Assembly: GCA_964016885.1 (NCBI GenBank)
Contig: OZ024742.1
Location: forward strand, 65,720,001 to 65,784,000
Length of the DNA stretch: 64,000 bases
Origin: Eledone cirrhosa
Taxonomy: Eukaryota
Direction: 5' to 3'
Below are positions 2,781 through 61,125 of the stretch, in pieces. Both the position numbers and the translations under genes were made by a program. Each line of letters opens with the position of its first letter. Positions within the stretch are counted from its first letter, which is position 1. Under the pieces are notes generated by a model, which saw only the letters and a program-made list of their open reading frames with translations, was not told the DNA's origin and ran no database searches.

Positions 2781-4620
2781 TAATTTATCACTCTAGAAAA
2801 TAATGGTTACCTGAACCAATTTCATGATCTATCAATCAAATAATTTGTTAATTTATCACTCTAGAAAATAATGGTTACCTGAACCAATTTCATGATCTAT
2901 CAATCAAATAATTTGTTAATTTATCACTCTAGAAAATAATGGTTACCTGAACCAATTTCATGATCTATCAATCAAATAATTTGTTAATTTATCACTCTAG
3001 AAAATAATGGTTACCTGAACCAATTTCATGATCTATCAATCAAATAATTTGTTAATTTATCACTCTAGAAAATAATGGTTACCTGAACCAATTTCATGAT
3101 CTATCAATCAAATAATTTGTTAATTTATCACTCTAGAAAATAATGGTTACCTGAACCAATTTCATGATCTATCAATCAAATAATTTGTTAATTTATCACT
3201 CTAGAAAATAATGGTTACCTGAACCAATTTCATGATCTATCAATCAAATAATTTGTTAATTTATCACTCTAGAAAATAATGGTTACCTGAACCAATTTCA
3301 TGATCTATCAATCAAATAATTTGTTAATTTATCACTCTAGAAAATAATGGTTACCTGAACCAATTTCATGATCTATCAATCAAATAATTTGTTAATTTAT
3401 CACTCTAGAAAATAATGGTTACCTGAACCAATTTCATGATCTATCAATCAAATAATTTGTTAATTTATCACTCTAGAAAATAATGGTTACCTGAACCAAT
3501 TTCATGATCTATCAATCAAATAATTTGTTAATTTATCACTCTAGAAAATAATGGTTACCTGAACCAATTTCATGATCTATCAATCAAATAATTTGTTAAT
3601 TTATCACTCTAGAAAATAATGGTTACCTGAACCAATTTCATGATCTATCAATCAAATAATTTGTTAATTTATCACTCTAGAAAATAATGGTTACCTGAAC
3701 CAATTTCATGATCTATCAATCAAATAATTTGTTAATTTATCACTCTAGAAAATAATGGTTACCTGAACCAATTTCATGATCTATCAATCAAATAATTTGT
3801 TAATTTATCACTCTAGAAAATAATGGTTACCTGAACCAATTTCATGATCTATCAATCAAATAATTTGTTAATTTATCACTCTAGAAAATAATGGTTACCT
3901 GAACCAATTTCATGATCTATCAATCAAATAATTTGTTAATTTATCACTCTAGAAAATAATGGTTACCTGAACCAATTTCATGATCTATCAATCAAATAAT
4001 TTGTTAATTTATCACTCTAGAAAATAATGGTTACCTGAACCAATTTCATGATCTATCAATCAAATAATTTGTTAATTTATCACTCTAGAAAATAATGGTT
4101 ACCTGAACCAATTTCATGATCTATCAATCAAATAATTTGTTAATTTATCACTCTAGAAAATAATGGTTACCTGAACCAATTTCATGATCTATCAATCAAA
4201 TAATTTGTTAATTTATCACTCTAGAAAATAATGGTTACCTGAACCAATTTCATGATCTATCAATCAAATAATTTGTTAATTTATCACTCTAGAAAATAAT
4301 GGTTACCTGAACCAATTTCATGATCTATCAATCAAATAATTTGTTAATTTATCACTCTAGAAAATAATGGTTACCTGAACCAATTTCATGATCTATCAAT
4401 CAAATAATTTGTTGATTTATCACTCTAGAAAATAATGGTTACCTGAACCAATTTCATGATCTATCAATCAAGTAATTTGTTAATTTAACACTCTAGAAAA
4501 TAATGGTTACATCAACTAATTTCATAATCTATAAATGAAAGAATTGTTTAATTTATCACTCTAGTAAATAATAGTTAAATCAAATAATTTATTGATCTGT
4601 CAATGAAGGCATTGGTTAGT
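2781..4620. repeat. 68-bp tandem satellite, about 27 copies
   Basis: Unit taatttatcactctagaaaataatggttacctgaaccaatttcatgatctatcaatcaaataatttgt; about 24 apparently identical copies (2781-4412), then about 3 decaying copies. Confidence 0.95.
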
Positions 4621-8505: not shown

Positions 8506-8652
8506 TTCGACAGCTAGATCCGAGCTGTCGAAACGGCAGGAGCTCAGCTGTCATGATCCTGACTCTTTTCCTATTACCCACTCTGCTACCCTAAGTATTG
8601 AGTACTCTGGTGCGTTATAGTCCACCTGGTTCCTTACCACACTTTCTTCGTT
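8501..8652 (+). mobile_element. Family H2 pLTR-like fragment with short inverted start and partial HHR
   Basis: gccgtttcgacagct-agatccg-agctgtcGAAAcggc...gctgTC followed by the H2 tail; (TA)n flanks. Confidence 0.65.
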
Positions 8653-16166: not shown

Positions 16167-16222
16167 GAGCATTTCTGATGATTTCATATACGAATGAAAC
16201 AGTTCTAGTTCTGTAGAAGCTC
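16167..16222 (+). ncRNA. Type I hammerhead, H1-related
   Basis: gagcattt-CTGATGA-tttcatatacgaat-GAAA-cag ttctagtt ctg-TA-gaagctc; inverted partial copy at 16111-16140. Confidence 0.75.
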
Positions 16223-16270
16223 TTCCTATATTAGTCAATGTGGTTACCCCCCATTTAACTCTGGATCTAC

Positions 16271-17596: not shown

Positions 17597-17906
17597 AAAA
17601 ACCATGGTTAGCATGTGTAGTGTGCCTATTGATATTATACGCAAGTATATATGCATGTAAATATGATACATCAAATAAAATCGTAATTGACAATATACAC
17701 AGAAATTGAACGAAGACTGCGTTACATTGTCTTATGTAATCAGTAACGTAATCCATGATACATTAAAAACAGACGATATTATATATAATCCTTTCTAGCG
17801 AATATGTGAAAAGATGGCTCTGTATATATGTATATAGATGTTTATTTAAGTATTGTTTTCTTTATCTAGGTGTGCTTAAGGAAGTATGTATGTTCGTATA
17901 CATATA

Positions 17907-17995
<89 letters not shown>

Positions 17996-18003
<8 letters not shown>

Positions 18004-19037
18004 CGTAAAATAAGAAAATTATAAAATTAACTTACTTACTAAAAAATCACTTCCAACTAATTAGTTTCTGGAATGGAGTAAATATATTTTCCGAAGAAAC
18101 ATAGGGAAAATCATTCCGTCATCAGGAAAGTCTTTTTCCGTATAGGTCTCCAGGCATAGCGAGGACACTGGAAACGTATTAAAAAAATAATTCAGTGGAA
18201 TGGAAATAGCGATGCGTGGACTGGATTCCAAGCCATTGAGAAAATCACTGCCTCTACGTCCGTGGCAAATTCAAAAAGAATCAATCACGTGACATCGAGG
18301 TCAATCAGTGGAAAGCGAGTGGTTATTAAGACAGCGGCTAGCTTACTACCATAGTAGCAGTCATGGCCAAATATTGCTCGACAAATGAATTGGAGATAAT
18401 TATAAGGAATTTATATCTAGTAACATTTATATACACACAGATGCATATCAATGCTAGCAAATATATAGGTTTTGTCTTATTAACAATGTGGTTCAATGCA
18501 TGGGGTTGCAGAACAATAATATGAGAGACGTAAAATAAGAAAATTATAAAATTAACTTTTTTAGTAAGTAAGTTAATTTTATAATTTTCTTATTTTACGT
18601 CTCTCATATTATTGTTCTGCAACCCCATGCATTGAACCACATTGTTAATAAGACAAAACCTATATATTTGCTAGCATTGATATGCATCTGTGTGTATATA
18701 AATGTTACTAGATATAAATTCCTTATAATTATCTCCAATTCATTTGTCGAGCAATATTTGGCCATGACTGCTACTATGGTAGTAAGCTGGCCGCTGTCTT
18801 AATAACCACTCGCTTTCCACTGATTGACCTCGATGTCACGTGATTGATTCTTTTTGAATTTACCACGGACGTAGAGGCAGTGATTTTCTCAATGGCTTGG
18901 AATCCAGTCCACGCATCGCTATTTCCATTCCACTGAATTATTTTTTTTAATAAGTTTCCAGTGTCCTCGCTATGCCTGGAGACCTATACGGAAAAAGACT
19001 TTCCTGATGACGGAATGATTTTCCCTATGTTTCTTCG

Positions 19038-19040
<3 letters not shown>
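17996..19040. mobile_element. Retrozyme/pLTR-like 525-nt monomer plus inverted copy (family H3)
   Basis: atgagagacgtaaaataag... repeats at 17996 and 18521; 18557-19040 is the reverse complement of the left unit. Confidence 0.75.
18049..18131 (-). ncRNA. Type I hammerhead with long stem II and palindromic stem III (H3)
   Basis: actttc-CTGATGA-cggaatg...cattcca-GAAA-ctaattag-TT-ggaagt. Confidence 0.75.
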
Positions 19041-19073
<33 letters not shown>

Positions 19074-19164
19074 CGAAGGAAATGTGGTAAGGAACCAGGT
19101 GGACCATAACGCACCAAAGTACTCAATACTTGAGGTAGTAGAGTGTGTAATAGGAACCAGTAAG

Positions 19165-19258
19165 ACCCCGACAGCTGAGCTCAAGCCGTTTCGACGGCTA
19201 ATTCTGGACTAAATGAAAATTTATCCTGGTATTTAAATAGCCGATCTTCTCAAGGGGT
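19165..19258 (-). ncRNA. Type I hammerhead, U3-A8 variant (H2)
   Basis: Reverse complement of 20154-20247. Confidence 0.75.
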
Positions 19259-20153
19259 AATTCCATATATGGTCAAAGTGATTGTCAAAAATCAGTAGTA
19301 ATTCTGTGGTTGCAAATTAGTAGGGGAGATGGTGGCTAAACCTGCCAGTAGGAGAAAGAGGGGAGGGGGTGGAGTAGCCCCAATCAAGCGTTTGTAGTAC
19401 CAGCTACAGCTGGGCATGAGGTCAAAGAAGATACAGGGGAGGGGGAGGAAGTCGGAACGGTAGGTAGAACAATGGGGGGTAGAAATATATAGGAAAGAAA
19501 AAATACTGAGAGTGAAGAAAAGCAAATAAGTGTAAAGAAAAACAAATGAGTGTAAAGAAAAAAGTAAAGTAAATTAAATTCTACGACCTAGGTCTTTAGC
19601 TATTGTTAGTCTAGAATAAATAAATAAATAAAGAAAGAAAGAAGTAAAGAAAGAAATAAAGAAATAACGAAATAAGTAAAAGAACTAGGTGGGACGGAAT
19701 AGGCGAGGACCCTTTTAAGAGGTATAAGTACGTAAATGATACGGTGACGGGTCAACAAAAGGGGCCAAAATACTAAAGAGACTACCACGAAATAAACAAT
19801 AAAGGTTTCCATCCCGGGCACAATTCCAGCAACCACCCGGTGCAGCAAAGTGAACTAATACGAGATAATAATTCTGAGTCCCGAGAAAAATATATACTAA
19901 TGCTAACTCTAAAAGATCTATTTCTACCCCCCATTGTTCTACCTACCGTTCCGACTTCTTCCCCCTCCCCCTCCCCTGTATCTTCTTTGACCTCATGCCC
20001 AGCTGTAGCTGGTACTACAAACGCTTGATTGGGGCTACTCCACCCCCTCCCCTCTTTCTCCTACTGGCAGGTTTAGCCACCATCTCCCCTACTAATTTGC
20101 AACCACAGAATTACTACTGATTTTTGACAATCACTTTGACCATATATGGAATT

Positions 20154-20247
20154 ACCCCTTGAGAAGATCGGCTATTTAAATACCAGGATAAATTTTCATT
20201 TAGTCCAGAATTAGCCGTCGAAACGGCTTGAGCTCAGCTGTCGGGGT
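20154..20247 (+). ncRNA. Type I hammerhead, U3-A8 variant (H2)
   Basis: acccc-TTGAGAA-gatcggcta...tagccgtc-GAAA-cggct tgagctc agctg-TC-ggggt; all three stems pair; GUC triplet. Confidence 0.78.
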
Positions 20248-20258
20248 CTTACTGGTTC

Positions 20259-20290
<32 letters not shown>

Positions 20291-20334
20291 AAGTTAAATA
20301 AAAGTCAAATGATTAAAATTTAGCTTCGTTTATT

Positions 20335-20389
20335 ACTGCTATATATATTTCAGTGACAGCCATCTTTGGCTGTGACCTCTTCAGGCAGT
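20335..20389 (-). ncRNA. Type I hammerhead (H4)
   Basis: actgc-CTGAAGA-ggtcacagcc aaagat ggctgtcact-GAAA-tatata-TA-gcagt, then aataaa. Confidence 0.8.
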
Positions 20390-20764
20390 TTGAATTAGTA
20401 TGGTATAGACAAGTACATATGTTGTTTAGGTGTATGATATTGTCAATACTCTGATATGCCCAGTTCCTTGTTGGGTTGTTAATTCGTATATATATATACG
20501 TGTAGACATAAGGGAAATGCATGCGCGGCGCAGCAACCGGTGGCATGAACAGAACAAGCTGCTAGAAATGGCACCCACTAAAATGGCGAAACATTCTCCT
20601 GGTGAGTGTGTACATGTGTGATTTAGGTGAGGTTGGTTTCTCATTTCAATTTATACTTTTAATTTTATGTTTTTCCTATGCCTCTAGTAGCTTATATTCT
20701 CTTCACGCTGGTGGTTTGGAATTCCTGTAAAGAAAAACACTCTCTGTGTCTTTCCCCTCTATAT

Positions 20765-20843
<79 letters not shown>

Positions 20844-20925
20844 GTTATTCCGGGTTGAATCGGAAGTAACCACAGTAAGTAAGGTACTCAATACATAGCA
20901 GAGTATAACAGTTTTAATATAGATG

Positions 20926-20976
20926 AGATTCTACAGGACTAGAACTGTTTCATTCATTAGAAATCATCAGGAATCT
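20926..20976 (-). ncRNA. Type I hammerhead (H1)
   Basis: agattc-CTGATGA-tttctaatgaat-GAAA-cag ttctagtc ctg-TA-gaatct. Confidence 0.85.
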
Positions 20977-21586
20977 GGGTATCAAAAAATAAATATGGTA
21001 TTTATAGGTCTCTACAAGTGGTAGGAGAGGGTGGGGAGTGGGATGGGTGCAGGTCATTGGTTGATAGAGAAGGGAATTCATTAAAAGTTGTTTGTTTGTT
21101 TGTTTGTTTGTTTGTTTGTTTGCTTGTTTTTTTGTGAATGTGTCTGTTGATTTGGCATATTGTTGATTAGTTTAAGAGAAGTTCGAAGATAATAGGAAGA
21201 TATGCACTCAGTATTTTGAATCTGTCTGCAGAATTCCCTAGACCTTTGTCACTTAGTAGAACCTTAATGACTTTAGCTTTTAAAGAATCTCCCTTTTCTT
21301 TAATTCTATCGAGCATGAATGACCCCCCACTGATTTTATAGACATCTGCTAGCTTAAGAGAAACTTATTGACAAGGAATGGTATGCCATCCGGAACCTGT
21401 TTATAGAATTCTGTCTGCCTTTGTTACTCTAAAAACATAAATAAATATAAATTAACTATAGCTATGTAGAATTAGCTTTTAATGAATTCCCTTCTCTATC
21501 AACCAATGACCTGCACCCATCCCACTCCCCACCCTCTCCTACCACTTGTAGAGACCTATAAATACCATATTTATTTTTTGATACCC

Positions 21587-21637
21587 AGATTCCTGATGAT
21601 TTCTAATGAATGAAACAGTTCTAGTCCTGTAGAATCT
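21587..21637 (+). ncRNA. Type I hammerhead (H1)
   Basis: Same motif on the plus strand; 6-bp stem I agattc/gaatct. Confidence 0.85.
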
Positions 21638-21649
21638 CATCTATATTAA

Positions 21650-21703
<54 letters not shown>

Positions 21704-21706
<3 letters not shown>

Positions 21707-21976
21707 AAACACTGATACAAGTATAAATGTGTTCGTATTGCAAATGACCAAGTTAGCTAGATTGAAAAATACTAATTAAAATAATACAGTTTGCCTGTCT
21801 CGATCTAAAATAATAAATCAATAAAAACAAATCTATATTGGCAAAAGCCGTGATACCTGGACAAATTTAAATTTCAAACTTAAAATTTGTTTCGCAACCA
21901 TTAATTAGTATTTTTCAATCTAGCTAATTTGGTCATTTGCAATACGAACACATGTGTACTCGTATCAGTGTTTATC
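21704..21976. repeat. Inverted repeat, about 75-bp arms
   Basis: gataaacactgatac...tactaatta / taattagta...gtatcagtgtttatc. Confidence 0.8.
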
Positions 21977-22190
21977 CCTATCATTTGTATTACACGGCTC
22001 AGAAATATTCCTTTCTTTGAGCTAGTTAATTGTAAAAGACGATTTGAGTTTATATATATATATATATACACACACACACAAAGCGAATAACTATGTGTAT
22101 ACTCTGGGAATGTATCTTACATTGCCCATTGAGTACGCTGAGATGCAACCGGTCCTGGCATTAATAAATATGCTGGGTCCGTCAACTCCT

Positions 22191-22275
<85 letters not shown>

Positions 22276-22734
22276 TATATATATATATATATATATATGC
22301 ATATATATGTATATAAAATATACATACTACCTTAAGCACACCTAGAAAAAGAAAACAATTCTTAGATAAACATCTATATACATATATACAGAGCCATCTT
22401 TTCAGATATTCGCTAGAAAGGATTATATATACACAGCAACAGCTATGCAGACTTATTAAAAATAATGATGAAAACAAACAAATAAACATACAGAGAAAAA
22501 AGACAGCCATAGGCACACAGAAACACTGGAGTATACACGTTTCATATATATACATATACACACTTAAACACAATGTTTTCCAGTCCACTATAAATCTATC
22601 CAGGTATAGATCTTTAATTGAGCGTGAATAAGCGATTCATTCAACTCAATTTGTTGAATCTCACGATATTTCTTGTTTAATTAGATTGGACACAAAAAGA
22701 GGAATAATGAAATAAAAGAAATGAGGAGTAGGTT

Positions 22735-25385
22735 GTATGGTAGTGGTGGCGATGGTGGTGTTGGTGGTTGTGGTGGTGGTGGTGTTAGTGGTTGTAGTTG
22801 TGGTGGCGGTGGTGGTGTTAGCGGTTGTGGTGGTGGTAGTGGTGGTGGTGGTGGTGGTGGTGATGGTGGTGGTGGTGGTGGTGGTTGTTGTGGTGGTGGT
22901 GCTGGTGCTGGTGGTGTTAGTGGTTGTGGTGGTGGTGGTGGTGTTAGTGGTTGTGGTTGTGGTGGTGGCGGTGTTAGTGGTTGTGGTTGTAGTGGTGGTG
23001 GTGGTGGTGTTAGTGGTTGTGGTTGTGGTGGTGGTGCTGGTGGTGATGGTAGTGGTTGTGGTGTTGGTGGTGGTGATGATGGTAGTGGTGATGGAGGTGG
23101 CGGTGGTGGTGTTAGTGGTTGTAGTTGTGGTGGTGGTGGTGATGATGGTGGTGGTGATGGTGGTAGTGGTGGTGGTGTTAGTGGTTGTGGTTGTGGTGGT
23201 GGTGGTGGTGATGATGGTGGTGGTGATGGTGGTGCTGGTGGTGGTGTTAGTGGTTGAGGTTGTGGTGGTGATGATGGTGGTGGTGATGGTGGTGCTGGTG
23301 GTGGTGTTAGTGGTTGTAGTTGTGGTGGCGGTGGTGGTGTTAGTGGTTGTGGTTGTGGAGGTGGTAGTGGTGATGATGGTAGTGGTGATGGTGGTGGCGG
23401 TGTTAGTGGTTGTGGTTGTGGTCGTAGTGGTGGTGGCGATGGTGGTAGTGGTGATGATGGTGGTGGTGGTGTTAGTGGATGTGTTTGTGGTGGTGGTGGT
23501 AATGGTTATTATGGTAGTGGTGATGGTGGTGGTGTTAGTGGTTGTGGTGGTGGCGATGTTGGTAGTGGTGATGGTGGTGGCGGTGGTGGTGTTAGTGGTT
23601 GCGGTTGTGGTGGTGGTGGTGTTAGTTGTTGTGGTTGTGGTGGTGGTGTTAGTTGTTGTGGTTGTGGTGGTGGTGGTGGTGGTGGTGTTAGTGGTTGTGG
23701 CTGTGGTGGTGGTGGTGGTGTTAGTGGTTGTGGTTGTGGTGGTGGTGGTGGTGTTAGTGGCTGTGATTGTGGTGGTGGTCGCGGTGGTGATGATGGTAGT
23801 GGTGATGGTGGTGGTGGTGGTGGTGGTATTAGTAGTTGTGGTTGTGGAGGTGGTAGTGGGGATGATGGTACTGGTGATGGTGGTGGCGGTGTTAGTGGTT
23901 GTGGTTGTGGTTGTAGTGGTGGTGGAGGTGATGGTGGTAGTGGTGATGGTGGTGGTGGTGGCGTTAGTCATTGTGGTTGTGGTGGTGGTGGTCATGGTTA
24001 TTATGGTAGTGGTGATGGTGGTGGTGTTAGTGGTTGTGGTTGTGGTGGTGGTGGCGATGTTGGTAGTGGTGATGGTGGTGGTGGCGATGTTGGTAGTGGT
24101 GATGGTGGTGGTGGTGGTGGTGGTGTTAGTGGTTGTGGTTGTGGTGGTGGTGGTGGTGGTGGTGATGGTGATTGTGATGGTGGTGGCGGTGGTGGTGTTA
24201 GTGGTTGCGGTTGTGGTGGTGGTGGTGGTGTTAGTGGCTGTGGTTTTGGTGGTGGTGGCGGTGGTGGTGTTAGTGGTTGCGGTTGTGGTAGTGGTGGTGA
24301 TGATGGTAGTGGTGATGGTGTGGTGGTGGTGTGTTAGTGGTTGTAATTGTGGTGGTGGTGGTGGTGGTAGTGGTGATGATGGTAGTGGTGATGGTTGTGG
24401 CAGTGGTGGTGTTAGTGGTTTTGGTTGTGGTGGTAGTGGTGGTGATGATGGTGGTGGTGATGGTGGTGGTGGTGTTAGTGGTTGTGGTTGTGGTTGTGGT
24501 GGTGGTGTTAGTGGTTGTGGTTGTGGTTGTAGTGGTGGTGGAGGTGATGGTGGTAGTGGTGATGGTGGTGGTGGTGGTGGTGGTGGTGGTCGTGGTTATT
24601 ATGGTAGTGGCGATGGTGGTGGTGTTAGTGGTTGTGGTTGTTGTGGTGGTGGCGATGTTGGTAGTGGTGATGGTGGTGGTGGTAGTGGTGGTGGTGGGGG
24701 ATGTGGTGGTGGGTGTGATAATGGTGGTGGTGGTGGTGGTGGTGGCGATGGTACTGATGATGGTGGCGGTAGTGGTTGTGGTGTTGGTAGGGGTGATGGT
24801 GGTGATAGTGGTTGTGGTGTTGGCGGTGGTGGTGGTGATGTTGTTGGTGGTGGTAGTGGTTCTGGTGTTGGCGGTGGTGGTGGAGGTTGTGGTGGTGGTA
24901 GTGGTCGTGGTGTTGGTTGTAGCTGTGGTGGTGGTGTTGGAGGGGTGGTGGTGTTGGTGGTGGTGGAGTTGCTGGAGGTGGTGGTGGCGATAGTGGTTTT
25001 AGAGGCGGTGGCGGCGGTGTTGGTGATGGTGATGGTGGAGGTGGTGGTTGTGGTGTTGGCGGTGGTGGTGGAGGTTGTGGTGGTGGTGTTGGTGGTGGTG
25101 GAGTTGCTGGAGGTGGTGGTGGCGATAGTGGTTTTAGAGGCGGTGGCGGCGGTGTTGGTGATGGTGATGGTGGAGGTGGTGGTTGTGGTGTTGGCGGTGG
25201 TGGTGGAGGTTGTGGTGGTGGTGTTGGTGGTGGTGGAGTTGCTGGAGGTGGTGGTGGCGATAGTGGTTTTAGAGGCGGTGGCGGCGGTGATGGTGATGGT
25301 GGAGGTGGTGGTGGTTGTGGCGGCGGTGGCGGCGGCGGTGGCGGCGGCGGCGGCGGTGGTGGTGTCGTGGTGGTGGAGGTGGTGA
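22735..25385 (-). repeat. (NGT)n low-complexity tract; possible Thr-rich mucin-like exon
   Basis: Minus strand reads ACC/ACT/ACA Thr codons with Asn/Ile/Ala/Ser; 135-bp internal repeat at 24991, 25126 and 25261; three apparent 1-nt frameshifts. Confidence is for the repeat, not for coding status. Confidence 0.75.
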
Positions 25386-30157: not shown

Positions 30158-30401
<244 letters not shown>

Positions 30402-34710: not shown

Positions 34711-35397
34711 TATTCCCCCTCTCTCTATATATATCTTACGCTTTCGCTTTACACTCCTCCCCTTCAATAACACATTTCCCCCTCTCTATATATCTCTTCC
34801 ACTGTTACTTACGCCTGTTTCTCTCTATCTGTTCCGTCTTTATATATATCTCTCTTACTCTTTCGCTTTGCACTCCTCCCCTTCAATACCATCTCTCCCC
34901 CTCTCTATATATTTGTTACTCTATCGCTGCACGCTCCTCTCCTTCAATATATCAATTACACACGCTTTACACTCCTTTATCCCCAGCGCCCCTATATATA
35001 CACCCCCCCCCCTCTCTCCCGCATCTATATTTTAATGTACCGTTGCACCGTGAATATATGTGTCTATATATATATACATATATATTGTATATACACACAT
35101 TCATGTATGTGTATACACACTCATGTATGTATATACACTGGTTTTATGTGTGTTATGTGTGTATTGTAAATTTGTACTGTTAAAACACGAAACTAACATT
35201 CGATTGACACTTTGATTACCTGTACAGGCAATAGTTATTAGAATGCTGTTGAAGTGTGTATATATTTTTGGGGGACATCCTGTATATACACACATTATAT
35301 ATAATACAATAAACAGATAAATACACACATATATATATGAGCTTATTTAATTATAAATATTGTGAATTTTTAACTCAGTTCAATTATATATATAAAT

Positions 35398-35442
35398 GGC
35401 TTCTACAGGACTAGAACTGTTTCATTCGAAAGAAATCATCAT
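35398..35442 (-). ncRNA. 5'-truncated H1 hammerhead
   Basis: TGATGA-tttctttcgaat-GAAA-cag...ctg-TA-gaag; C3 and the 5' strand of stem I are lost. Confidence 0.55.
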
Positions 35443-36133: not shown

Positions 36134-36345
36134 AACGAAGAATGATAACATTTCAAGCAAAGAGTTTAATTAGGTAATGACTTACAAATTTGTTTCAGTA
36201 TATATTTAATATAATATTAATATATTTTGTAATATTATTAACTAATTATTATAATTAGCGCTTCAGGCTTTGTCTATATACTGAAACAAATTTGTAAGTC
36301 ATTACCTAATTAAACTCTTTGCTTGAAATTTTATCACTCTTCGTT
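36134..36345. repeat. Fold-back module with partial HHR 3' half
   Basis: About 70-bp inverted arms containing GAAA-caaatttg-TA-agtc. Confidence 0.65.
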
Positions 36346-36829
36346 TTGAATTTCTCCTAAGTATTCAATACTCTGTTGAGAAATACATTTTACATAAACA
36401 GTCTTTGTACCATTTATACGGTATTAATTACTTATATTTATATATATATATATATAGCGTATGATTAGAACTGTGTTTATTATTAATATTTTAATGGATT
36501 TAATGAAAAATTTTAGGTGTTCATATATATATTCTAAAAATGCGCGAAATCGTGAATCCGCGATAGTTGAACCGCCAAGTAGCGAGGTATCACTGTATAT
36601 ATGTTTAAATATATAGTGTAGCTGTGATGTATCTCGCGAGTGAATCGAGACCTGTCACTGACTTTGGTGTCCCCACTGCCGATGTGAATGAGCAACGCTG
36701 CACTTGTGAATTGGGTCTTGATGTTGCAGGCAGTTCATATACTTACAATGATGCGGTCCCACAAGCTTGTTCACATTCCTGTGCTAATAATCTAGATGGG
36801 CGTATTAAATTGGATGTGAAAGCAGCTTA

Positions 36830-38595: not shown

Positions 38596-39145
38596 TGTGC
38601 AATAAGAGCAAAATATAACGACATTGCTCAATTATTTTATCTAATGTTGTAATAACACAAGGAAATGTTGTTTGTGTATTTTTTTTTATATTTGCTCATA
38701 GGCTTTTACAATTTCGCTCAGCCAACAACTATTAAAAAGTGAGTTGCTTATGATAACAATTTAATCACAAATTGTTGCTATCTTTTAATACACTCCAACA
38801 AGTCATCAAATTATGTACAATAAAAACAAATCTTATTAATTTGCTCAGGGAATATAAAGAAAATGTATATACACTGATAATTGCAATTGTATGTAAATAT
38901 TTTGTTTTTGTATTGTTTATTTTATGTTTTCTATTATGTATAATATATTGATTTAATATTGATTGTTTTTTGTAGTTGTTTATATTAAAAGTCTGAAAAT
39001 ATTTTTATACATCTTACACTAATATTTATAAGATAATTTATAATAACAATTACATAATCTAATTACATTACAACGATAATTTATTATTAATATATATCCT
39101 ATTTAACTAGAGTTATTACAAGCGTTGCCTTAAAAAAATATTAAA

Positions 39146-40100
39146 CTAGACATGAAAAATGCGCAAGCTCAAAAGTGCCACAGAATGTTATAATAAACCT
39201 TCAAAAGTGTGGGACTAGAGTTGTTGCTAAAAAATATTGTAATCATTATATATCGTACATTCTGTGGCATCCTTTATAAAAATAGCTTAAACCAACGAAG
39301 CCTTTATTTTTACGCTATTTCACTTAGTTAATTCTTAGAGTGTAACATATAAAAATAAATACATCTATGTTTAATGTAATAACAGCTATAAATAATTACG
39401 TAATATTATTATCATATACTCATAGTAACAAAATAATTGTGTTGAAAATTAATATGATGCTTATATGAACGATCAAATCTATAATGATAATTTCTTAAAT
39501 ATACTAATAGTAAAATAATTTAGTTATCTATTGTTACATTTTCATAGAACTATAATATTAACAATCGTATTGCATTATCACATTTTTATCACTACAAACT
39601 TTCATATTGGAATTACCTTAAGCCACTTATTATTACTTCGCTTTCGTACTTTTACAGCTGTAGATATTGCGCTGTATCTTATATCTAATATCAATATCTC
39701 ATGGTAATTTGCATGCAGTGTAAAATAGGTTTATTAATAACTTTAATATGAAATGTATTATACAGGGCTGCGGAGTCGGCCAAAAATTGACTGGCTCCAA
39801 CTCAGGATCCGATACTCCATTATTTCCTAAATTTCAGCTCCGCAGCTCTGTTATTATATTAATTAATTTATTTTATAGTTGTAAATCATATTTTTATATG
39901 TTACACTCTAAGAATTAACTAAGTGAAATAGCGTAAAAATAAAGGCTTCGTTGGTTTAAGCTATTTTTATAAAGGATGCCACAGAATGTACGATATATAA
40001 TGATTACAATATTTTTTAGCAACAACTCTAGTCCCACACTTTTGAAGGTTTATTATAACATTCTGTGGCACTTTTGAGCTTGCGCATTTTTCATGTCTAG
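39146..40100. repeat. Fold-back element, about 210-bp near-perfect inverted arms
   Basis: ctagacatgaaaaatgcgc...tgtaacatataaaaata at 39146-39357 mirrored at about 39888-40100. Confidence 0.85.
39763..39850. mobile_element. hAT-like MITE nested in the fold-back spacer
   Basis: TIRs cagggctgcggag / ctccgcagctctg; 8-bp flanks gtattata / ttattata (7/8 identical). Confidence 0.6.
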
Positions 40101-40204
40101 TATATATATATATAAATATATATATATATAAATATATTTATATATATATATACATATATATGGCATATTGTGACGTATATAGTGGTAAAATAACGGGACA
40201 CAAT

Positions 40205-40322
<118 letters not shown>

Positions 40323-40441
40323 CACTATGATTCCAGTTCCTCAGTGAAATAACAACCCAACCAGGAACTGGGCATATAAGAGTATTGACAAAGTTATACA
40401 CCTCAACAACATATGTACTTGTCTATACCACACTAATTCGG

Positions 40442-40496
40442 ACTGCCTGAAGAGGTCACAGCCAAAGATAGCTGTCACCAAAATATATATAGCAGT
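40442..40496 (+). ncRNA. H4 hammerhead copy with G12A change (probably inactive)
   Basis: actgc-CTGAAGA-...-AAAA-tatata-TA-gcagt. Confidence 0.65.
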
Positions 40497-40634
40497 AATA
40501 AACGAAGCTAAATTTTAAACATTTGACTTATTTATTTTATTTTATTTTACATTATTCCGGAGTAACCAAACCAACCTGCGCACTTCGTCGAGTGCTCCAA
40601 ACTGCATACTGAGATGTTGGTATACAACCAACAT

Positions 40635-40823
<189 letters not shown>

Positions 40824-40905
40824 GTTATTCCGGGTTGAATCGGAGGTAACCACAGTAAGTAAGGTACTCAATACATAGCACAGTATAACAGTTTTAATAT
40901 AGATG

Positions 40906-40956
40906 AGATTCTACAGGACTAGAACTGTTTCATTCATTAGAAATCATCAGGAATCT
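40906..40956 (-). ncRNA. Type I hammerhead (H1)
   Basis: Same sequence as 20926-20976. Confidence 0.85.
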
Positions 40957-41008
40957 GGGTATCAAAAAATAATATATTTATTTTTACCATATTTATTTTT
41001 TGATACCC

Positions 41009-41059
41009 AGATTCCTGATGATTTCTAATGAATGAAACAGTTCTAGTCCTGTAGAATCT
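41009..41059 (+). ncRNA. Type I hammerhead (H1)
   Basis: Same sequence as 21587-21637. Confidence 0.85.
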
Positions 41060-41071
41060 CATCTATATTAA

Positions 41072-41160
<89 letters not shown>

Positions 41161-41280: not shown

Positions 41281-41300
41281 TATATATATATATATATAGT

Positions 41301-42158
41301 ATATATAAAAAACATGAGAAGAAAGGAGAATACTGCGTGGTTGCACATAGGTTACATATGATAAAAAAGTCCTTCGTCAGTGATTTTCCAACCATCATTG
41401 GTATTACATCGCATTAAAAATCAGATACCTCAGGTTGGTGCGAGCAATAACTAAAAAACGTTATTGGGACCAGTAATTCGCGTAAAGTGAGGGGGACAAG
41501 TAAACAACATAGAAGGATAAAAGCAAACCGAAGATAGGAAAATAAACAAGCAACATGGTTGACCGGTCAGCATAAACTGGGTGGATTTCATGAGTGAGAA
41601 AGGTACAGACCGTCCGATGTGTGTGAGATGTAAGCAAGAAGAGACCCACTACAAGCCAAACGGGAGGAAGTGAGAAGGGGAGAAACAGAGAGTGAGTGAG
41701 TGGAAGTGTGAGGAAGAGGTCAGTCGAGAGAAAGTGTAACTGACAGAGGGGCGAAAGAAGGTGAGAGAAACAGAGAGAACGGAGAAGCAGAAAGAGAGAA
41801 ACAGACAAACGCAGTCGAGGTAAATATATATAAAAAACATGAGAAGAAAGAAGAATACTGCGTGGTTGCACATAGGTTACATATGATAAAAAAGTCCTTC
41901 GTCAGTGATTTTCCAACCATCATTGGTATTACATCGCATTAAAAATCAGATACCTCAGGTTGGTGCGAGCAATAACTAAAAAACGTTATTGAGACCAGTA
42001 ATTCGCGTAAAGCGAGGGGGACAAGTAAACAACATAGAAGGATAAAAGCAAACCGAAGATAGGAAAATAAACAAGCAACATGGTTGACCGGTCAGCATAA
42101 ACTGGGTGGATTTCATGAGCGAGAGAGGTACAGACCGTCCGATGTGTGTGAGATGTAA
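41301..42158. repeat. Partial tandem duplication, period 525 bp (about 1.6 units)
   Basis: catgagaag at 41313 and 41838; about 330 bp duplicated with few substitutions. Confidence 0.85.
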
Positions 42159-53369: not shown

Positions 53370-53602
53370 TATAAAATAACAGGAGGCTGGACTGGTGTAA
53401 TTCCTTAAAGGTTTATTATACTATGAACATTTCAATGACCGGGTTCAGTATGAATCCGGTGACATCATCAGGTATACGAAATTTAACAAAGGAATACCTA
53501 ATGATGTCACCGGATTCATACTGAACCCGGTCATTGAAATATTCATAGTATAATAAACCTTTAAGGAATTACACCAGTCCAGCCTCCTGTTATTTTATAA
53601 TA
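53370..53602. repeat. Fold-back module, about 105-bp arms (H7)
   Basis: 53370-53475 mirrored at 53494-53602. Confidence 0.85.
53418..53475 (-). ncRNA. Type I hammerhead (H7)
   Basis: atac-CTGATGA-tgtcaccgg...ccggtcatt-GAAA-tgttca-TA-gtat; the right-arm copy has CTAATGA (G5A). Confidence 0.72.
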
Positions 53603-56081: not shown

Positions 56082-56415
56082 TAAAAGGAATTCCAACTTT
56101 GTCTGATTTACTCGTTTTATTTACAATCCTTTAAAATTTATAATGGTATTAGAATGAAATAGTATGGTAGAATATTAAATCTTCAGGTTCATAATGTGTG
56201 GTGACAGTCAAGTTTGCAATTTTCAACTGTGAAAATTGCAAACTTGACTATCACCACACATTATGAACCTGAAGATTGCGAAAGCATGAAAGTACTTGTT
56301 CAATTAACACTTAACATTTAATATTCCACCATACTATTTCATTCTAATAGTATTATAAATTTTAGAGGATTGTAAATAAAACGAGTAAATCAGACAAAGT
56401 TGGAATTCCTTTTAT
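56082..56415. repeat. Fold-back module (H8); left arm lacks most of the HHR
   Basis: Inverted arms around 56225-56230; about 45 bp missing from the left arm. Confidence 0.8.
56264..56302 (+). ncRNA. Minimal type I hammerhead (H8)
   Basis: tgaac-CTGAAGA-t tgc gaaa gca t-GAAA-gtac-TT-gttca; palindromic GUAC loop III. Confidence 0.82.
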
Positions 56416-56453
56416 TAATATAATCTTCTATACACAATCATACACACCGTGTA

Positions 56454-56559
<106 letters not shown>

Positions 56560-56574
56560 ATCAATCCTAACTAT

Positions 56575-56646
<72 letters not shown>

Positions 56647-58100: not shown

Positions 58101-60316
58101 CTACATTTTAAATTTAAATTTATATTTAAAAGTTGAGTTTAATCTATGTTTGCAGCAACTGAATAAATTTGTCCGTAGATTAAGGGAATTTTTAGATTTT
58201 AGTATAAAGAATATCTCCTCTGCGCAGAGGTCACATGTCTCAGAGGATGAATTAAAAGGAATCCCTCTTGAGACTATATTCCAAGCCGTCGAATATCTAA
58301 CGTTATCTAGCTTAAGTTGCCAGAGTACGCCTGATAGTGCCGTTGAAGATTTTTGCTTGGATCTGTGAAAGAATTCTTGTGGTTATTATAGCGAAGTTTA
58401 AATTCCGTCGATGTGGAACCGACGTAGTTAAAAAAATTAGAATCAGTTTTAACATTACAATTGTATACTATATTTTTAACTAAGCAGTTGTTATTTAACG
58501 GACATTTAGATCTATCTCTACAGTTACATTTGTTAACTTGTATATTATTTATGCTATTATCACTAGGTTTTAAGTTCCTATTATTTATTCTATTAATATT
58601 TTGTGCTAAATTTTTGGTGGATGAGTAGGTTAATTTAATAGTATGTCTATTGAAAATTGAGTGATACCTATGTGTTCTAGGGAAGCGATTATCAAGAGCT
58701 TTAAAAAATAGTTTAGCGATGTGGGTTTTAATGTTTAGTGAGAAAGGGGGGGGGGCAAACCAAATTATGTTCCTAGTTCTATTTCTTTTTTGGCCCTTGG
58801 AATTATTGTAATGCTTTCTATTATAGTTGTTAAGGTTGTTGCCGTAATTAAAATAGTTGTTATTTTGTTTAGTTTGTCTATCATTATCTATGTACATAAT
58901 CTTATCAGTATATCCTGCTCTAGCTAACGCTTCATTGTAGTACTGGGCTTTTTCGTCGAAAATCTTTCTATTAGACGAGATTCTAGAGATACGTTTTTGA
59001 ACAGAGTTTACTATAGTGTTTTTGACAGATCTGGGGTGGTTAGAGTTAAAGCTGACATAGTTTACGTTTTCATTCAACTTGTGAAAAGCAGAGTGAAGAC
59101 ATGTGTTGAGATTTAATGTTATATCTAGGAAATTGACTATTCTATGGTTGTTCTCAATTTCTATTTTAAGATTAAAGTAATTAAAAAATTGTGTAATTTG
59201 TTTACATTTTCTATTTAGTTCAGAGTTATTATTATCAATAAGTAAAAGCATGTCATCTCTATATAAACCTCCGGTAGTACCAGGTATTTTCCTATGTAGC
59301 GAATTGATTAAAAATAAGCCCACAAGGTCAGTTACCTGAGCTGAGTCGGATGATCCCATAGTAATGTCAAAATTGCTATCTCTATCTGCTCTGGTCCATA
59401 GTTGGTCATTAAATTCTATCAATGTTTTCCTAGCCGATAATATAATATGCATTTCATTGCTAGTTAGGTCTGTATGTTTGAATGCGTAATTTAGTGCCTT
59501 ATTTAGTAGATTAGGGGTAATAGAAGAATAATAGTTAGCAATATCAAGTTGAATAAACTTATTATTATTGTTATATTTAATTTGCTTAAACCACTCAACA
59601 ACCTCTCCAGTTCCCTTCAACAAGCTCAGGTTAGATAAACAATCCAAGTTCTTAATTTGCTGTATCACCCTGTCAAGAATGTTTTTGCTTAATTTGCCCA
59701 GGTCCGATTTTGATGGTGCGATCAATCTAACTGGCAAGTCATTTTCAAAATTCCTCTTGTGATCTTTCATATTGATCTTCGGTTTCCTGGGCACGAAAGG
59801 TTGTGTTCTGTTCTCAATTTCCAACTCGTGCATTATACAAGATGCTTCGACATTCATTTTCTCAAGCTCGGCCTTATCTGCTACCTTGTACTTTTTCCTC
59901 AGTTCTTTCAGTATGAGGCCATTATACATGTCTTTCTGCACTCCATAGAGGTTGTTGGTCTTGTCAGATTTCGCCAAGATCTTCTCAGTTTTCTGTAAGC
60001 TCTCAATATTATCCTTAATGGCTTTCAGATATTCCTGGCCTTTGAAGTTTCTCTTGAATTTGACCCCTTGTATGATAGAAATTATATCGTTTTCAAAGTC
60101 AGATAAAAGTTTGTTAGGGGGTGGATTTCTTTTAGATTTGAAAACTTTGTTTAAGTCCGAGACATTTTCATTTATATTAGATTTATCAAAGTGGAATGCT
60201 CGCCACCTGATTCTCCTTATAAAAGAGTCAGATTTATCTATTAATTGTTTTATAAAGTCTTTGTTTCTAGGTAGAGGTATGTCTTTTAAAGAGGAAGTAA
60301 TCTTAAAGAATTCCAT
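58101..60316 (-). CDS. Penelope-like retroelement ORF (Naiad-type RT + GIY-YIG endonuclease), about 738 aa with one frameshift at the A-run 58350-58354
   Basis: FIRRIRWRA, QLDIANYYSSI, FDITMGSSD, GLYRDD, NFLDITLNL, CNCR..CPL, NIVY...YVGST, FKLRYNNH; the shifted frame continues STALSGVLWQLK...CDLCAEE...CCKHR to a TAG at 58101. Confidence 0.92.
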
Positions 60317-60494: not shown

Positions 60495-60574
<80 letters not shown>

Positions 60575-60765
60575 GGTTATGCACGAGTGTATTAATGTTT
60601 TCCAGGACACAGTGTTATGTACCGTGTAGTGGAATGTCAGCTTACAACAGAGTGGTGCTCAATGAAATGCAGAAAATAGGTGTATATTCCAGTTTAGCTA
60701 TATTCCGGGGCGTGTATAAAGAATTAAAAAGAACAGAAAGATGCAGTAAAAGAGATTTATTCGGT

Positions 60766-60880
60766 TCTTACGTACGTTTCAATAGACATCTATTTGCCTA
60801 GATCTCGCTACATCTATAATATTATATATTTAGTAGAGCATTCGATATCCAATGCACAATCGATCCCATATCATCAGAGA
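60766..60880 (-). ncRNA. Type I hammerhead with about 90-nt stem II insert (H9), same sense as the Naiad ORF
   Basis: tct-CTGATGA-tatggg...tctatt-GAAA-cgtacg-TA-aga; palindromic stem III; stem I only 3 bp. Confidence 0.7.
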
Positions 60881-60897
60881 TTATGTTTGAAACATAA

Positions 60898-61012
60898 TCT
60901 CTGATGATATGGGATCGATTGTGCATTGGATATCGAATGCTCTACTAAATATATAATATTATAGATGTAGCGAGATCTAGGCAAATAGATGTCTATTGAA
61001 ACGTACGTAAGA
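60898..61012 (+). ncRNA. Type I hammerhead (H9), mirror copy
   Basis: Same motif on the plus strand. Confidence 0.7.
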
Positions 61013-61056
61013 ACCGAATAAATCTCTTTTACTGCATCTTTCTGTTCTTTTTAATT

Positions 61057-61125
<69 letters not shown>

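What the first reader, a model, noticed from the sequence alone, without database searches (positions are those of the whole stretch)
17996..19040. 525-nt wrap-around ribozyme monomer (retrozyme / circular RNA candidate) plus its inverted copy
On the minus strand the unit begins with the same sequence that follows the HHR cleavage site (repeat at 18521 and 17996, period 525), so it is slightly more than one turn of a circular or tandem template. The inverted arm starts about 10 nt after the cleavage site and ends inside stem II. There is no ORF. This is the footprint expected from reverse transcription of a self-cleaved, circularised RNA, as known for non-LTR retrozymes; to my knowledge this unit is longer than typical animal examples.
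Basis: partly seen in the sequence, partly recalled or inferred. Interest (0 to 1): 0.8.

Follow-up and report, generated by a model that had tools for sequence, protein, structure and literature searches.

The report
Penelope-type hammerhead repeat, mirror-image insertion
This is one copy of an abundant 525-base non-coding repeat carrying a predicted self-cutting RNA motif, inserted as two mirror-image arms in a TA repeat in the layout known for Penelope-type jumping genes, which likely copied it from an RNA whose front end the ribozyme had cut rather than from a circle.

Summary
Two head-to-head arms (17998-18558 minus, 1.07 units; 18557-19039 plus, 0.92 unit; 4 differences in 471 columns) of a 525-nt non-coding unit lie between (TA)n tracts. 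The left arm holds one complete predicted type I hammerhead (0 of 3000 shuffles match). Public runs show an abundant, diverged family in three organisms, and the wrap-around junction is family-wide. The layout (inverted copy, one-sided 92-nt tail, TA target) is the published Penelope-like element (PLE) footprint and occurs in 10 of 60 TA-flanked segments of this window, so it does not show a circle. Only the wrap-around is special. Both inner ends stop 9-11 and 22-24 nt after the predicted cut, which fits a linear template with a ribozyme-cut 5' end better than a circle (one insertion only). A predicted 16-bp helix covers the cut site, and family variants seem to keep it. 525 nt is within the published range of 51-972 bp. 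No RNA data and no whole genome were available. The scan has noted similar hammerhead families of other sequence in this genome and a like layout in another genome. Verdict: a new non-autonomous PLE/retrozyme-type family; circular RNA not shown.

The parts
17912..17997 (.). Left (TA)n target tract
17998..18558 (-). Left arm, 561 nt = 1.07 units; 5' (inner) end at +22 to +24 after the predicted cut, 3' (outer) end at +57 to +61, running into (TA)n
17998..18089 (-). One-sided 92-nt extension (PLE-type tail), absent from the right arm's outer end
   Evidence: 6 of the 9 other inverted TA inserts have 68-93 nt
17998..18033 (-). Wrap-around redundancy, identical to 18523-18558 (period 525)
   Evidence: junction near 18520 crossed by many diverged reads and contigs
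18049..18131 (-). Predicted type I hammerhead ribozyme: stem I 18131-18126/18054-18049, core 18125-18119, stem II 18117-18112/18075-18070, GAAA 18068-18065, stem III 18065-18063/18058-18056, predicted cut between 18055 and 18054
   Evidence: activity untested
18302..18318 (-). Predicted blocker segment, pairs 16 bp with 18063-18047 (stem III, cut site, stem I 3' strand)
   Evidence: -17.2 kcal/mol; 6 of 500 shuffles as good; pairing probability 0.95-1.0; variants read by eye
18557..18562 (.). Head-to-head junction: run of six T, two of them shared by both arms
18557..19039 (+). Right (inverted) arm, about 482 nt = 0.92 unit; starts +9 to +11 after the predicted cut, ends in the stem II insert 35 nt before the cut; carries only the 5' half of the ribozyme (CTGATGA at 19004-19010)
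19040..19072 (.). Right (TA)n tract, shared with the next inverted insert (19073-20259)

Best explanation
This is a non-coding 525-nt repeat unit with a predicted hammerhead ribozyme, inserted as two head-to-head arms in a (TA)n tract, likely by a borrowed Penelope-type reverse transcriptase/endonuclease copying a linear RNA whose 5' end was likely made by ribozyme cleavage. Shown: the layout, the family-wide 525-nt wrap, abundance, and that both arms share the same rare alleles. Inferred steps: (1) a tandem or partial-tandem source locus is transcribed past one unit; (2) the upstream ribozyme cuts, while the downstream one stays uncut, possibly because a segment 250 nt upstream pairs over its cut site; (3) the PLE protein nicks both strands of (TA)n and starts two cDNAs at two internal AU-rich sites 92 nt apart (-35 and about +57), which gives the one-sided tail; (4) both cDNAs run to near the cut 5' end (+9 to +11, +22 to +24) and are joined there over a 2-nt overlap.
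For: Inverted 5'-truncated copy, one-sided tail and (TA)n preference are described for PLEs (PMC8557442). A purified PLE protein nicks and extends both strands and starts at two internal sites that bound the tail (PMC11167929). 10 of 60 TA-flanked segments in the window have this layout, 6 of the other 9 with 68-93-nt extensions, and two copies of one family share the same 68-nt extension. A Hydra-like PLE ORF lies at 58307-60316. Other copies end in (TA)n at the same outer site (loose ends at 18519: 14 contigs in X1, 17 in X2) and at 18401 (2, 3 and 1 contigs in X2, X3, X6). Simple fold-back is excluded: the left arm extends 92 nt beyond the right, and the right has about 13 inner nt that the left lacks there. 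Both arms carry the minority letter at 8 positions where most of run X1 differs. Both inner ends lie within 25 nt of the predicted cut (rough post hoc chance 0.05 if coupled, 0.002 if independent). Blocker helix.
Against: One insertion only: no genome was held, so inner-junction positions could not be counted across copies. In the green anole PLE, cleavage was not needed in vitro and no RNA ends were found at the cut. The ribozyme has a C.A mismatch closing stem II, and its active fold is 3.9-12.7 kcal/mol above the ensemble in all 9 constructs folded, also without the blocker (the model ignores tertiary contacts). 8 of 9 Xenopus retrozyme dimers showed no cleavage in vitro. The right arm's outer end was not seen as a recurrent site in the loose-end rows shown (344 and 275 rows not shown), so it could be a later deletion into the TA tract. 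The blocker resembles the ribozyme's own 5' half and may be a decayed duplicate. Earlier unchecked notes report multi-unit arms for other families in this genome, which favour circles. No partner PLE with matching ends was found.
Confidence: 0.55

Rival explanations
1. Same element and same PLE machinery, but the template was a 525-nt circular RNA made by double cleavage and ligation.
For: The left arm passes through the cut site and exceeds one unit. The sense strand folds better than shuffles as a circle (z -4.5, 0 of 30; antisense -1.8; six controls +1.3 to -0.95). The blocker would protect a circle from re-cleavage, as stated for viroids and plant retrozymes. Circles are shown for coral, mussel and axolotl retrozymes. 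Earlier unchecked notes describe multi-unit arms in sister families.
Against: A circle has no end, yet both arms stop just after the cut, the right one before completing a turn. The linear unit folds almost as well (z -3.75), and the paired fraction is only 0.61 against 0.57 in shuffles. No contig or read in 8 runs was shown to bridge ribozyme, tail and next unit with enough length on both sides (best side 33 nt); contigs break at repeats and the reduced-representation reads end mostly at AATT sites, so this is weak.
Confidence: 0.27
2. The unit is only the terminal repeat (pLTR) region of a long coding PLE, and the wrap is a partial-tandem junction special to this or a few insertions; no 525-nt unit moves by itself.
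For: All insertion features are those of PLEs; neighbours in the window are 5'-truncated hammerhead-bearing ends without a wrap; most PLE hammerheads occur as single truncated copies.
Against: Both arms carry the tail-to-body junction; 1,100-1,600 reads deep per run cross 18492-18548 in the raw-read runs, and diverged contig pieces span it in organisms A, B and C; overlapping pieces tile the unit, and the strongest loose ends shown are variants of the unit, not a new sequence; no ORF. A coding parent that shares the ends remains likely and is compatible with the best explanation.
Confidence: 0.12
3. A DNA-level palindrome (fold-back repair, MITE-like element or assembly artefact) with a chance ribozyme-like motif.
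For: Near-perfect palindrome between microsatellites; no read or contig was laid across this insertion's own centre; Rfam has no hammerhead hit.
Against: Asymmetric arms that cannot be copied from each other; 4 differences between arms, two of which match the family letter in one arm only; full hammerhead core and three helices, 0 of 3000 shuffles; same layout with other hammerheads nearby.
Confidence: 0.06

Closest known systems
Metazoan non-LTR retrozymes (Cervera and de la Pena 2020, PMC7229834, parts 2-4 of 6 read; Li, Clavereau and Pollet 2026, bioRxiv 10.64898/2026.07.22.740005, parts 1-3 of 5 read)
   Same: Non-coding, GC 36%, type I hammerhead with short palindromic stem III, unit of a few hundred bases, many copies, structured sense strand, PLEs in the same genome.
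   Different: Here 1.07 + 0.92 units in inverted layout with one complete ribozyme, not a tandem array; long stem II with a C.A mismatch; cut site predicted to be blocked, whereas most metazoan retrozyme circles are said to leave it free; no circular RNA shown; 525 nt is above 170-400 nt but inside 51-972 bp.
EN+ Penelope-like elements (Penelope/Poseidon, Neptune, Naiad, Hydra) and their non-autonomous derivatives such as MRC1 (Craig et al. 2021, PMC8557442, passages and the Hydra section read; Frangieh et al. 2024, PMC11167929, parts 1-2 of 4 read)
   Same: Inverted copy joined at the 5' ends, one-sided tail, (TA)n target with no readable target-site duplication, hammerhead near the 3' end, partial-tandem terminal redundancy.
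   Different: No RT or endonuclease ORF; tail 92 nt rather than 30-40; the short outer end falls inside the ribozyme; both inner ends sit just after the predicted cut.
PLE hammerhead variants (Cervera and de la Pena 2014, PMC4209133, parts 1-2 of 4 read)
   Same: Larger helix II, extra nucleotide after position 9, G-C first stem II pair, small palindromic helix III suited to dimers.
   Different: An extra A before G12 and a 50-nt stem II insert with a second helix.

Membership tests
Type I hammerhead ribozyme | CUGANGA, GAAA and NUH core with three helices, helix I open | tested here: met
   stems of 6, 6 and 3 bp; C.A mismatch at the base of stem II; 0 of 3000 shuffles
Type I hammerhead ribozyme | Match to an Rfam hammerhead model | tested here: not met
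   no hammerhead hit at gathering or E up to 10; the long stem II insert is the likely cause (inference)
Type I hammerhead ribozyme | Self-cleavage at the NUH site | not testable with these tools
   no assay; the predicted active fold is not the most stable one
Non-LTR retrozyme | Non-coding unit, no LTR, GC under 50% | tested here: met
   GC 0.36, longest ATG ORF 53 aa
Non-LTR retrozyme | At least two consecutive tandem units each with a complete hammerhead (the 'active' criterion of Li et al.) | tested here: not met
   at this locus one complete ribozyme only
Non-LTR retrozyme | Tandem multimers of the unit elsewhere in the genome | tested here: inconclusive
   no genome held; wrap joints in contigs too short to tell a tandem from a tailed 3' end
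Non-LTR retrozyme | Unit length in the known range | tested here: met
   525 nt against 51-972 bp; above 170-400 nt
Non-LTR retrozyme | Stable, highly self-paired predicted structure | tested here: inconclusive
   z -4.5 on the sense strand but paired fraction 0.61 against 0.57
Non-LTR retrozyme | Expression as monomeric circular RNA | not testable with these tools
   no RNA run could be laid
Non-autonomous Penelope-like element | Inverted 5'-joined copy, one-sided tail, microsatellite target, hammerhead near the 3' end, terminal redundancy | tested here: met
   against PMC8557442
Non-autonomous Penelope-like element | Many dispersed copies ending at recurrent 3' sites in (TA)n | tested here: met
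   1570-1774 contigs laid per run in organism A; TA loose ends at 18519 and 18401
Non-autonomous Penelope-like element | 3' end homologous to an autonomous PLE of the same genome | tested here: inconclusive
   no match inside the window; genome not held
Autonomous Penelope-like element | ORF with RT and GIY-YIG endonuclease | tested here: not met

The most novel reading that the evidence does not exclude
The unit encodes its own ribozyme switch: a conserved segment 250 nt upstream pairs over the cut site, so that in a longer-than-unit transcript only the first hammerhead fires. This yields a linear template with a cut 5' end and an intact 3' ribozyme and tail, which a PLE dimer copies from both sides of a (TA)n break. 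[quoted passage not shown] I did not see this described in six paper searches.
Probability: 0.25. Interest if true: 0.65.

Novelty: new member of a known kind. Interest (0 to 1): 0.38.

Why it matters
As a family it is one more non-autonomous PLE/retrozyme-type repeat, and a 2026 preprint already argues that animal retrozymes are such derivatives. Its value is mechanistic. A one-unit, two-armed copy records both start sites and both stop sites of reverse transcription relative to the ribozyme cut. Counting those positions over the family would decide between a linear cut template and a circle, an open point in both the PLE and retrozyme papers read. The 525-nt size and the predicted blocker make an easy in vitro test.

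Tried and rejected
Whole-genome copy analysis: no genome held. Exact-pattern scans: 0 matches in metagenome contigs and viral contigs. Rfam: nothing at gathering; the E-value hits are microRNA models matching the palindrome centre, all below gathering, rejected. Earlier findings by sequence and nearby: none. Pfam on the nearby PLE ORF: only DUF2209 at E 0.14. The other 525-period repeat at 41300-42158 shows no similarity to this unit and no hammerhead; treated as coincidence. Pol III A and B boxes and the octamer (consensus recalled from memory): absent; one E-box and short TATA, CCAAT and Inr-like words, not taken as evidence. RNA-editing scars: the 3 arm substitutions read G>A, G>A and A>C against the family letter (for one of them inferred from its absence in the variant rows shown), so no sign of A>G editing. 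The first circular fold used a monomer two bases out of register (z -3.9) and was redone. Three opposite-strand joints in reduced-representation reads were set aside as possible library chimeras; one contig joint 18403/18522 could be head-to-head or tail-to-tail. The supplement of PMC8557442, which holds Hydra hammerhead alignments, was listed but not read; it may bear on which PLE clade the ribozyme resembles. Supplements of the bioRxiv preprint were not seen.

Full report
Observation. Between (TA)n tracts at 17912-17997 and 19040-19072 lie two inverted arms. The left arm reads on the minus strand from 18558 to 17998, the right arm on the plus strand from 18557 to 19039, so their 5' ends meet in the centre. 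They differ by 3 substitutions and 1 indel in 471 columns. The left arm's last 36 nt repeat its first 36 nt at a period of 525. There is no ORF and no other copy of the unit in the window.

The ribozyme. The minus strand has CUGAUGA (18125-18119), GAAA (18068-18065) and GUU (18057-18055), with stems of 6, 6 and 3 bp; stem II has a C.A mismatch at its base and a 50-nt insert, and stem III is palindromic. 0 of 3000 shuffles gave such a motif, with thresholds taken from the observed one. Rfam misses it. None of the 40 variant rows shown in each falls in the catalytic core, but 95 and 216 rows were not shown. An extra nucleotide after position 9, a larger helix II and a palindromic helix III are described for PLE hammerheads (PMC4209133). 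Activity is untested, and the active fold is not the most stable one in any of 9 constructs.

The family. 12 of 15 listed runs hold part of the unit, none on record as RNA. I laid 8 runs. Contig sets of organism A gave 1774, 1622 and 1570 records, organism B 45, organism C 26; three reduced-representation runs gave 5035, 3856 and 3772 reads out of 12.5-12.8 million, mostly under 95% alike. Hundreds to thousands of copies is my inference, not a count. The tail-to-body junction near 18520 is crossed by over a thousand reads per raw run and by diverged contigs of all three organisms, so the 525-nt wrap belongs to the family. Other copies end in (TA)n at 18519 (14 and 17 contigs) and 18401 (6 contigs in three runs). 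Whether tandem multimers exist could not be told: wrap joints were found, but the only one with a stated side had 33 nt, no longer than a tailed 3' end.

The layout is ordinary for PLEs. Craig et al. describe an inverted 5'-truncated copy, a one-sided tail and (TA)n targets (PMC8557442). Frangieh et al. show that a PLE protein nicks and extends both strands, starts at two internal sites that bound the tail, and does not need ribozyme cleavage in vitro (PMC11167929). In this window 10 of 60 segments between TA runs have terminal inverted arms with a one-sided extension: 92 nt here, 68-93 nt in 6 of the other 9, and 14, 147 and 165 nt in the rest. Only this one repeats its outer end inside. Nine motifs pass my hammerhead descriptor, five of them one neighbouring family. 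A PLE ORF with Hydra-type motifs lies at 58307-60316; nothing links it to this unit by sequence.

How it was likely made. Neither arm can be a fold-back copy of the other: the left extends 92 nt further out, and the right has about 13 more nt at the centre. Both carry the minority letter at 8 positions where most of run X1 differs (18104, 18213, 18389, 18406, 18436, 18480, 18485, 18486), so they come from one source or were homogenised later. Two cDNAs primed from the two target strands, at -35 and about +57 relative to the predicted cut, fit this; both outer ends adjoin ATAT-like words that match the target. The inner ends lie at +9 to +11 and +22 to +24. A linear RNA whose 5' end is the cut explains both stops; a circle gives no reason to stop there, and the right arm stops before one turn. 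This rests on one insertion and is post hoc. I put the linear cut template at about 0.55 and the circle at 0.27.

A possible switch. The sense strand is more stable than shuffles (circular z -4.5, linear -3.75, 0 of 30 each; antisense -1.8, 2 of 30; six control stretches +1.3 to -0.95). Part of this is a 16-bp helix between 18318-18302 and 18063-18047 that covers stem III, the cut and the 3' strand of stem I (-17.2 kcal/mol, 6 of 500 shuffles as good, pairing probability 0.95-1.0). Read by eye: common changes at 18302 and 18316 turn G.U pairs into A-U, and a subfamily whose blocker reads CACUCC matches the common one-letter loss at 18051, which gives GGAGUG. These variants are on separate reads and are not phased. 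Other changes nearby (18318, 18319, 18321) lie at or beyond the helix end. Against selection: the segment resembles the ribozyme's own 5' half and may be a decayed duplicate, and removing it still leaves the active fold 3.9-9.9 kcal/mol unfavourable in this model. The helix could silence the downstream ribozyme of a linear precursor or protect a circle, so it does not choose between the two.

Comparison and membership. It works like a non-LTR retrozyme and like a non-autonomous PLE, which Li et al. argue are the same thing (bioRxiv 10.64898/2026.07.22.740005). It meets the PLE insertion features tested. At this locus it fails the 'active retrozyme' criterion of two consecutive complete ribozymes, and circular RNA is untested, so I file it as a non-autonomous PLE-type hammerhead element and not as a proven circRNA retrozyme. 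The length is unremarkable (51-972 bp), though above the 170-400 nt of PMC7229834. Rolling reverse transcription of a circle is proposed, not shown, in the parts read of PMC7229834, PMC4209133 and PMC7761336. Searches for octopus or cephalopod retrozymes listed no paper describing one (listings only); the label cephalopod comes from earlier notes, not from a test of mine.

Earlier notes. The scan has noted two-armed hammerhead families of 310, 311, 422, 467 and 478 nt in this genome and a 1.1-kb palindrome of like layout in another; none matched this unit by sequence. They are unchecked. Most favour a circle because of multi-unit arms, one favours cut RNA units, and one calls the layout ordinary.

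Verdict. Real, correctly described, a new member of a known kind. The circular-RNA inference is not shown and is the second-best reading. Interest 0.38; the novel case (ribozyme-defined 5' end with a built-in blocker) has probability 0.25 and interest 0.65 if true.

Noticed in passing
window 58307-60316, minus (continues to about 58100): 669-aa ORF with RT (RDD) and GIY-YIG-like motifs and Hydra-clade marks (RWR, DKT, CxCx5C linker). Read by eye, the C-terminal part with CxxC and CxH continues in another frame, so the copy looks frameshifted near 58350. Atlas neighbours score 0.96, some carrying RVT_1 or GIY-YIG. No hammerhead passed the descriptor at its 3' end.
   Followed up: partly
window 20843-21652, 40823-41074, 1611-1786, also 16171-16233 and 35390-35441: A second hammerhead family (short stem II with U.U at its base, long stem III, GUA cut) in five partial or two-armed copies; two copies share the same 68-nt tail.
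   Followed up: partly
window 19073-20259, 30160-30299, 1827-2022, 8523-8651: A third inverted (TA)n-insert family with an 80-nt extension, adjoining the right arm; no hammerhead passed the descriptor.
   Followed up: partly
window 20286-20485 and 40346-40547; 53374-53602; 60572-61059; 56084-56577; 21704-22050; 36134-36438; 39142-40104: Further TA-flanked inverted or truncated inserts, some with hammerhead cores (minus 20384, minus 53471).
   Followed up: no
window 41300-42158: Unrelated direct repeat, 334 nt at 98.5%, also with period 525, ending in (TA)n; contains CTGACGA but no full hammerhead and is not unusually structured.
   Followed up: partly
window 17780-17894 and 22317-22431: A 115-nt inverted pair (95%) brackets the whole cluster of inserts from 17.9 to 22.3 kb, perhaps an older element whose TA tract took successive insertions.
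   Followed up: no
window 2781-4577 and 22738-25384: A 68-bp tandem array of 26 near-identical copies, and a 2.6-kb GGT-rich array that gives long open frames on both strands.
   Followed up: no
window 18401 (read data): A further recurrent 3' end joined to (TA)n, 118 nt beyond the main one, in three runs and two organisms; some templates extend at least about 175 nt past the cut position.
   Followed up: partly
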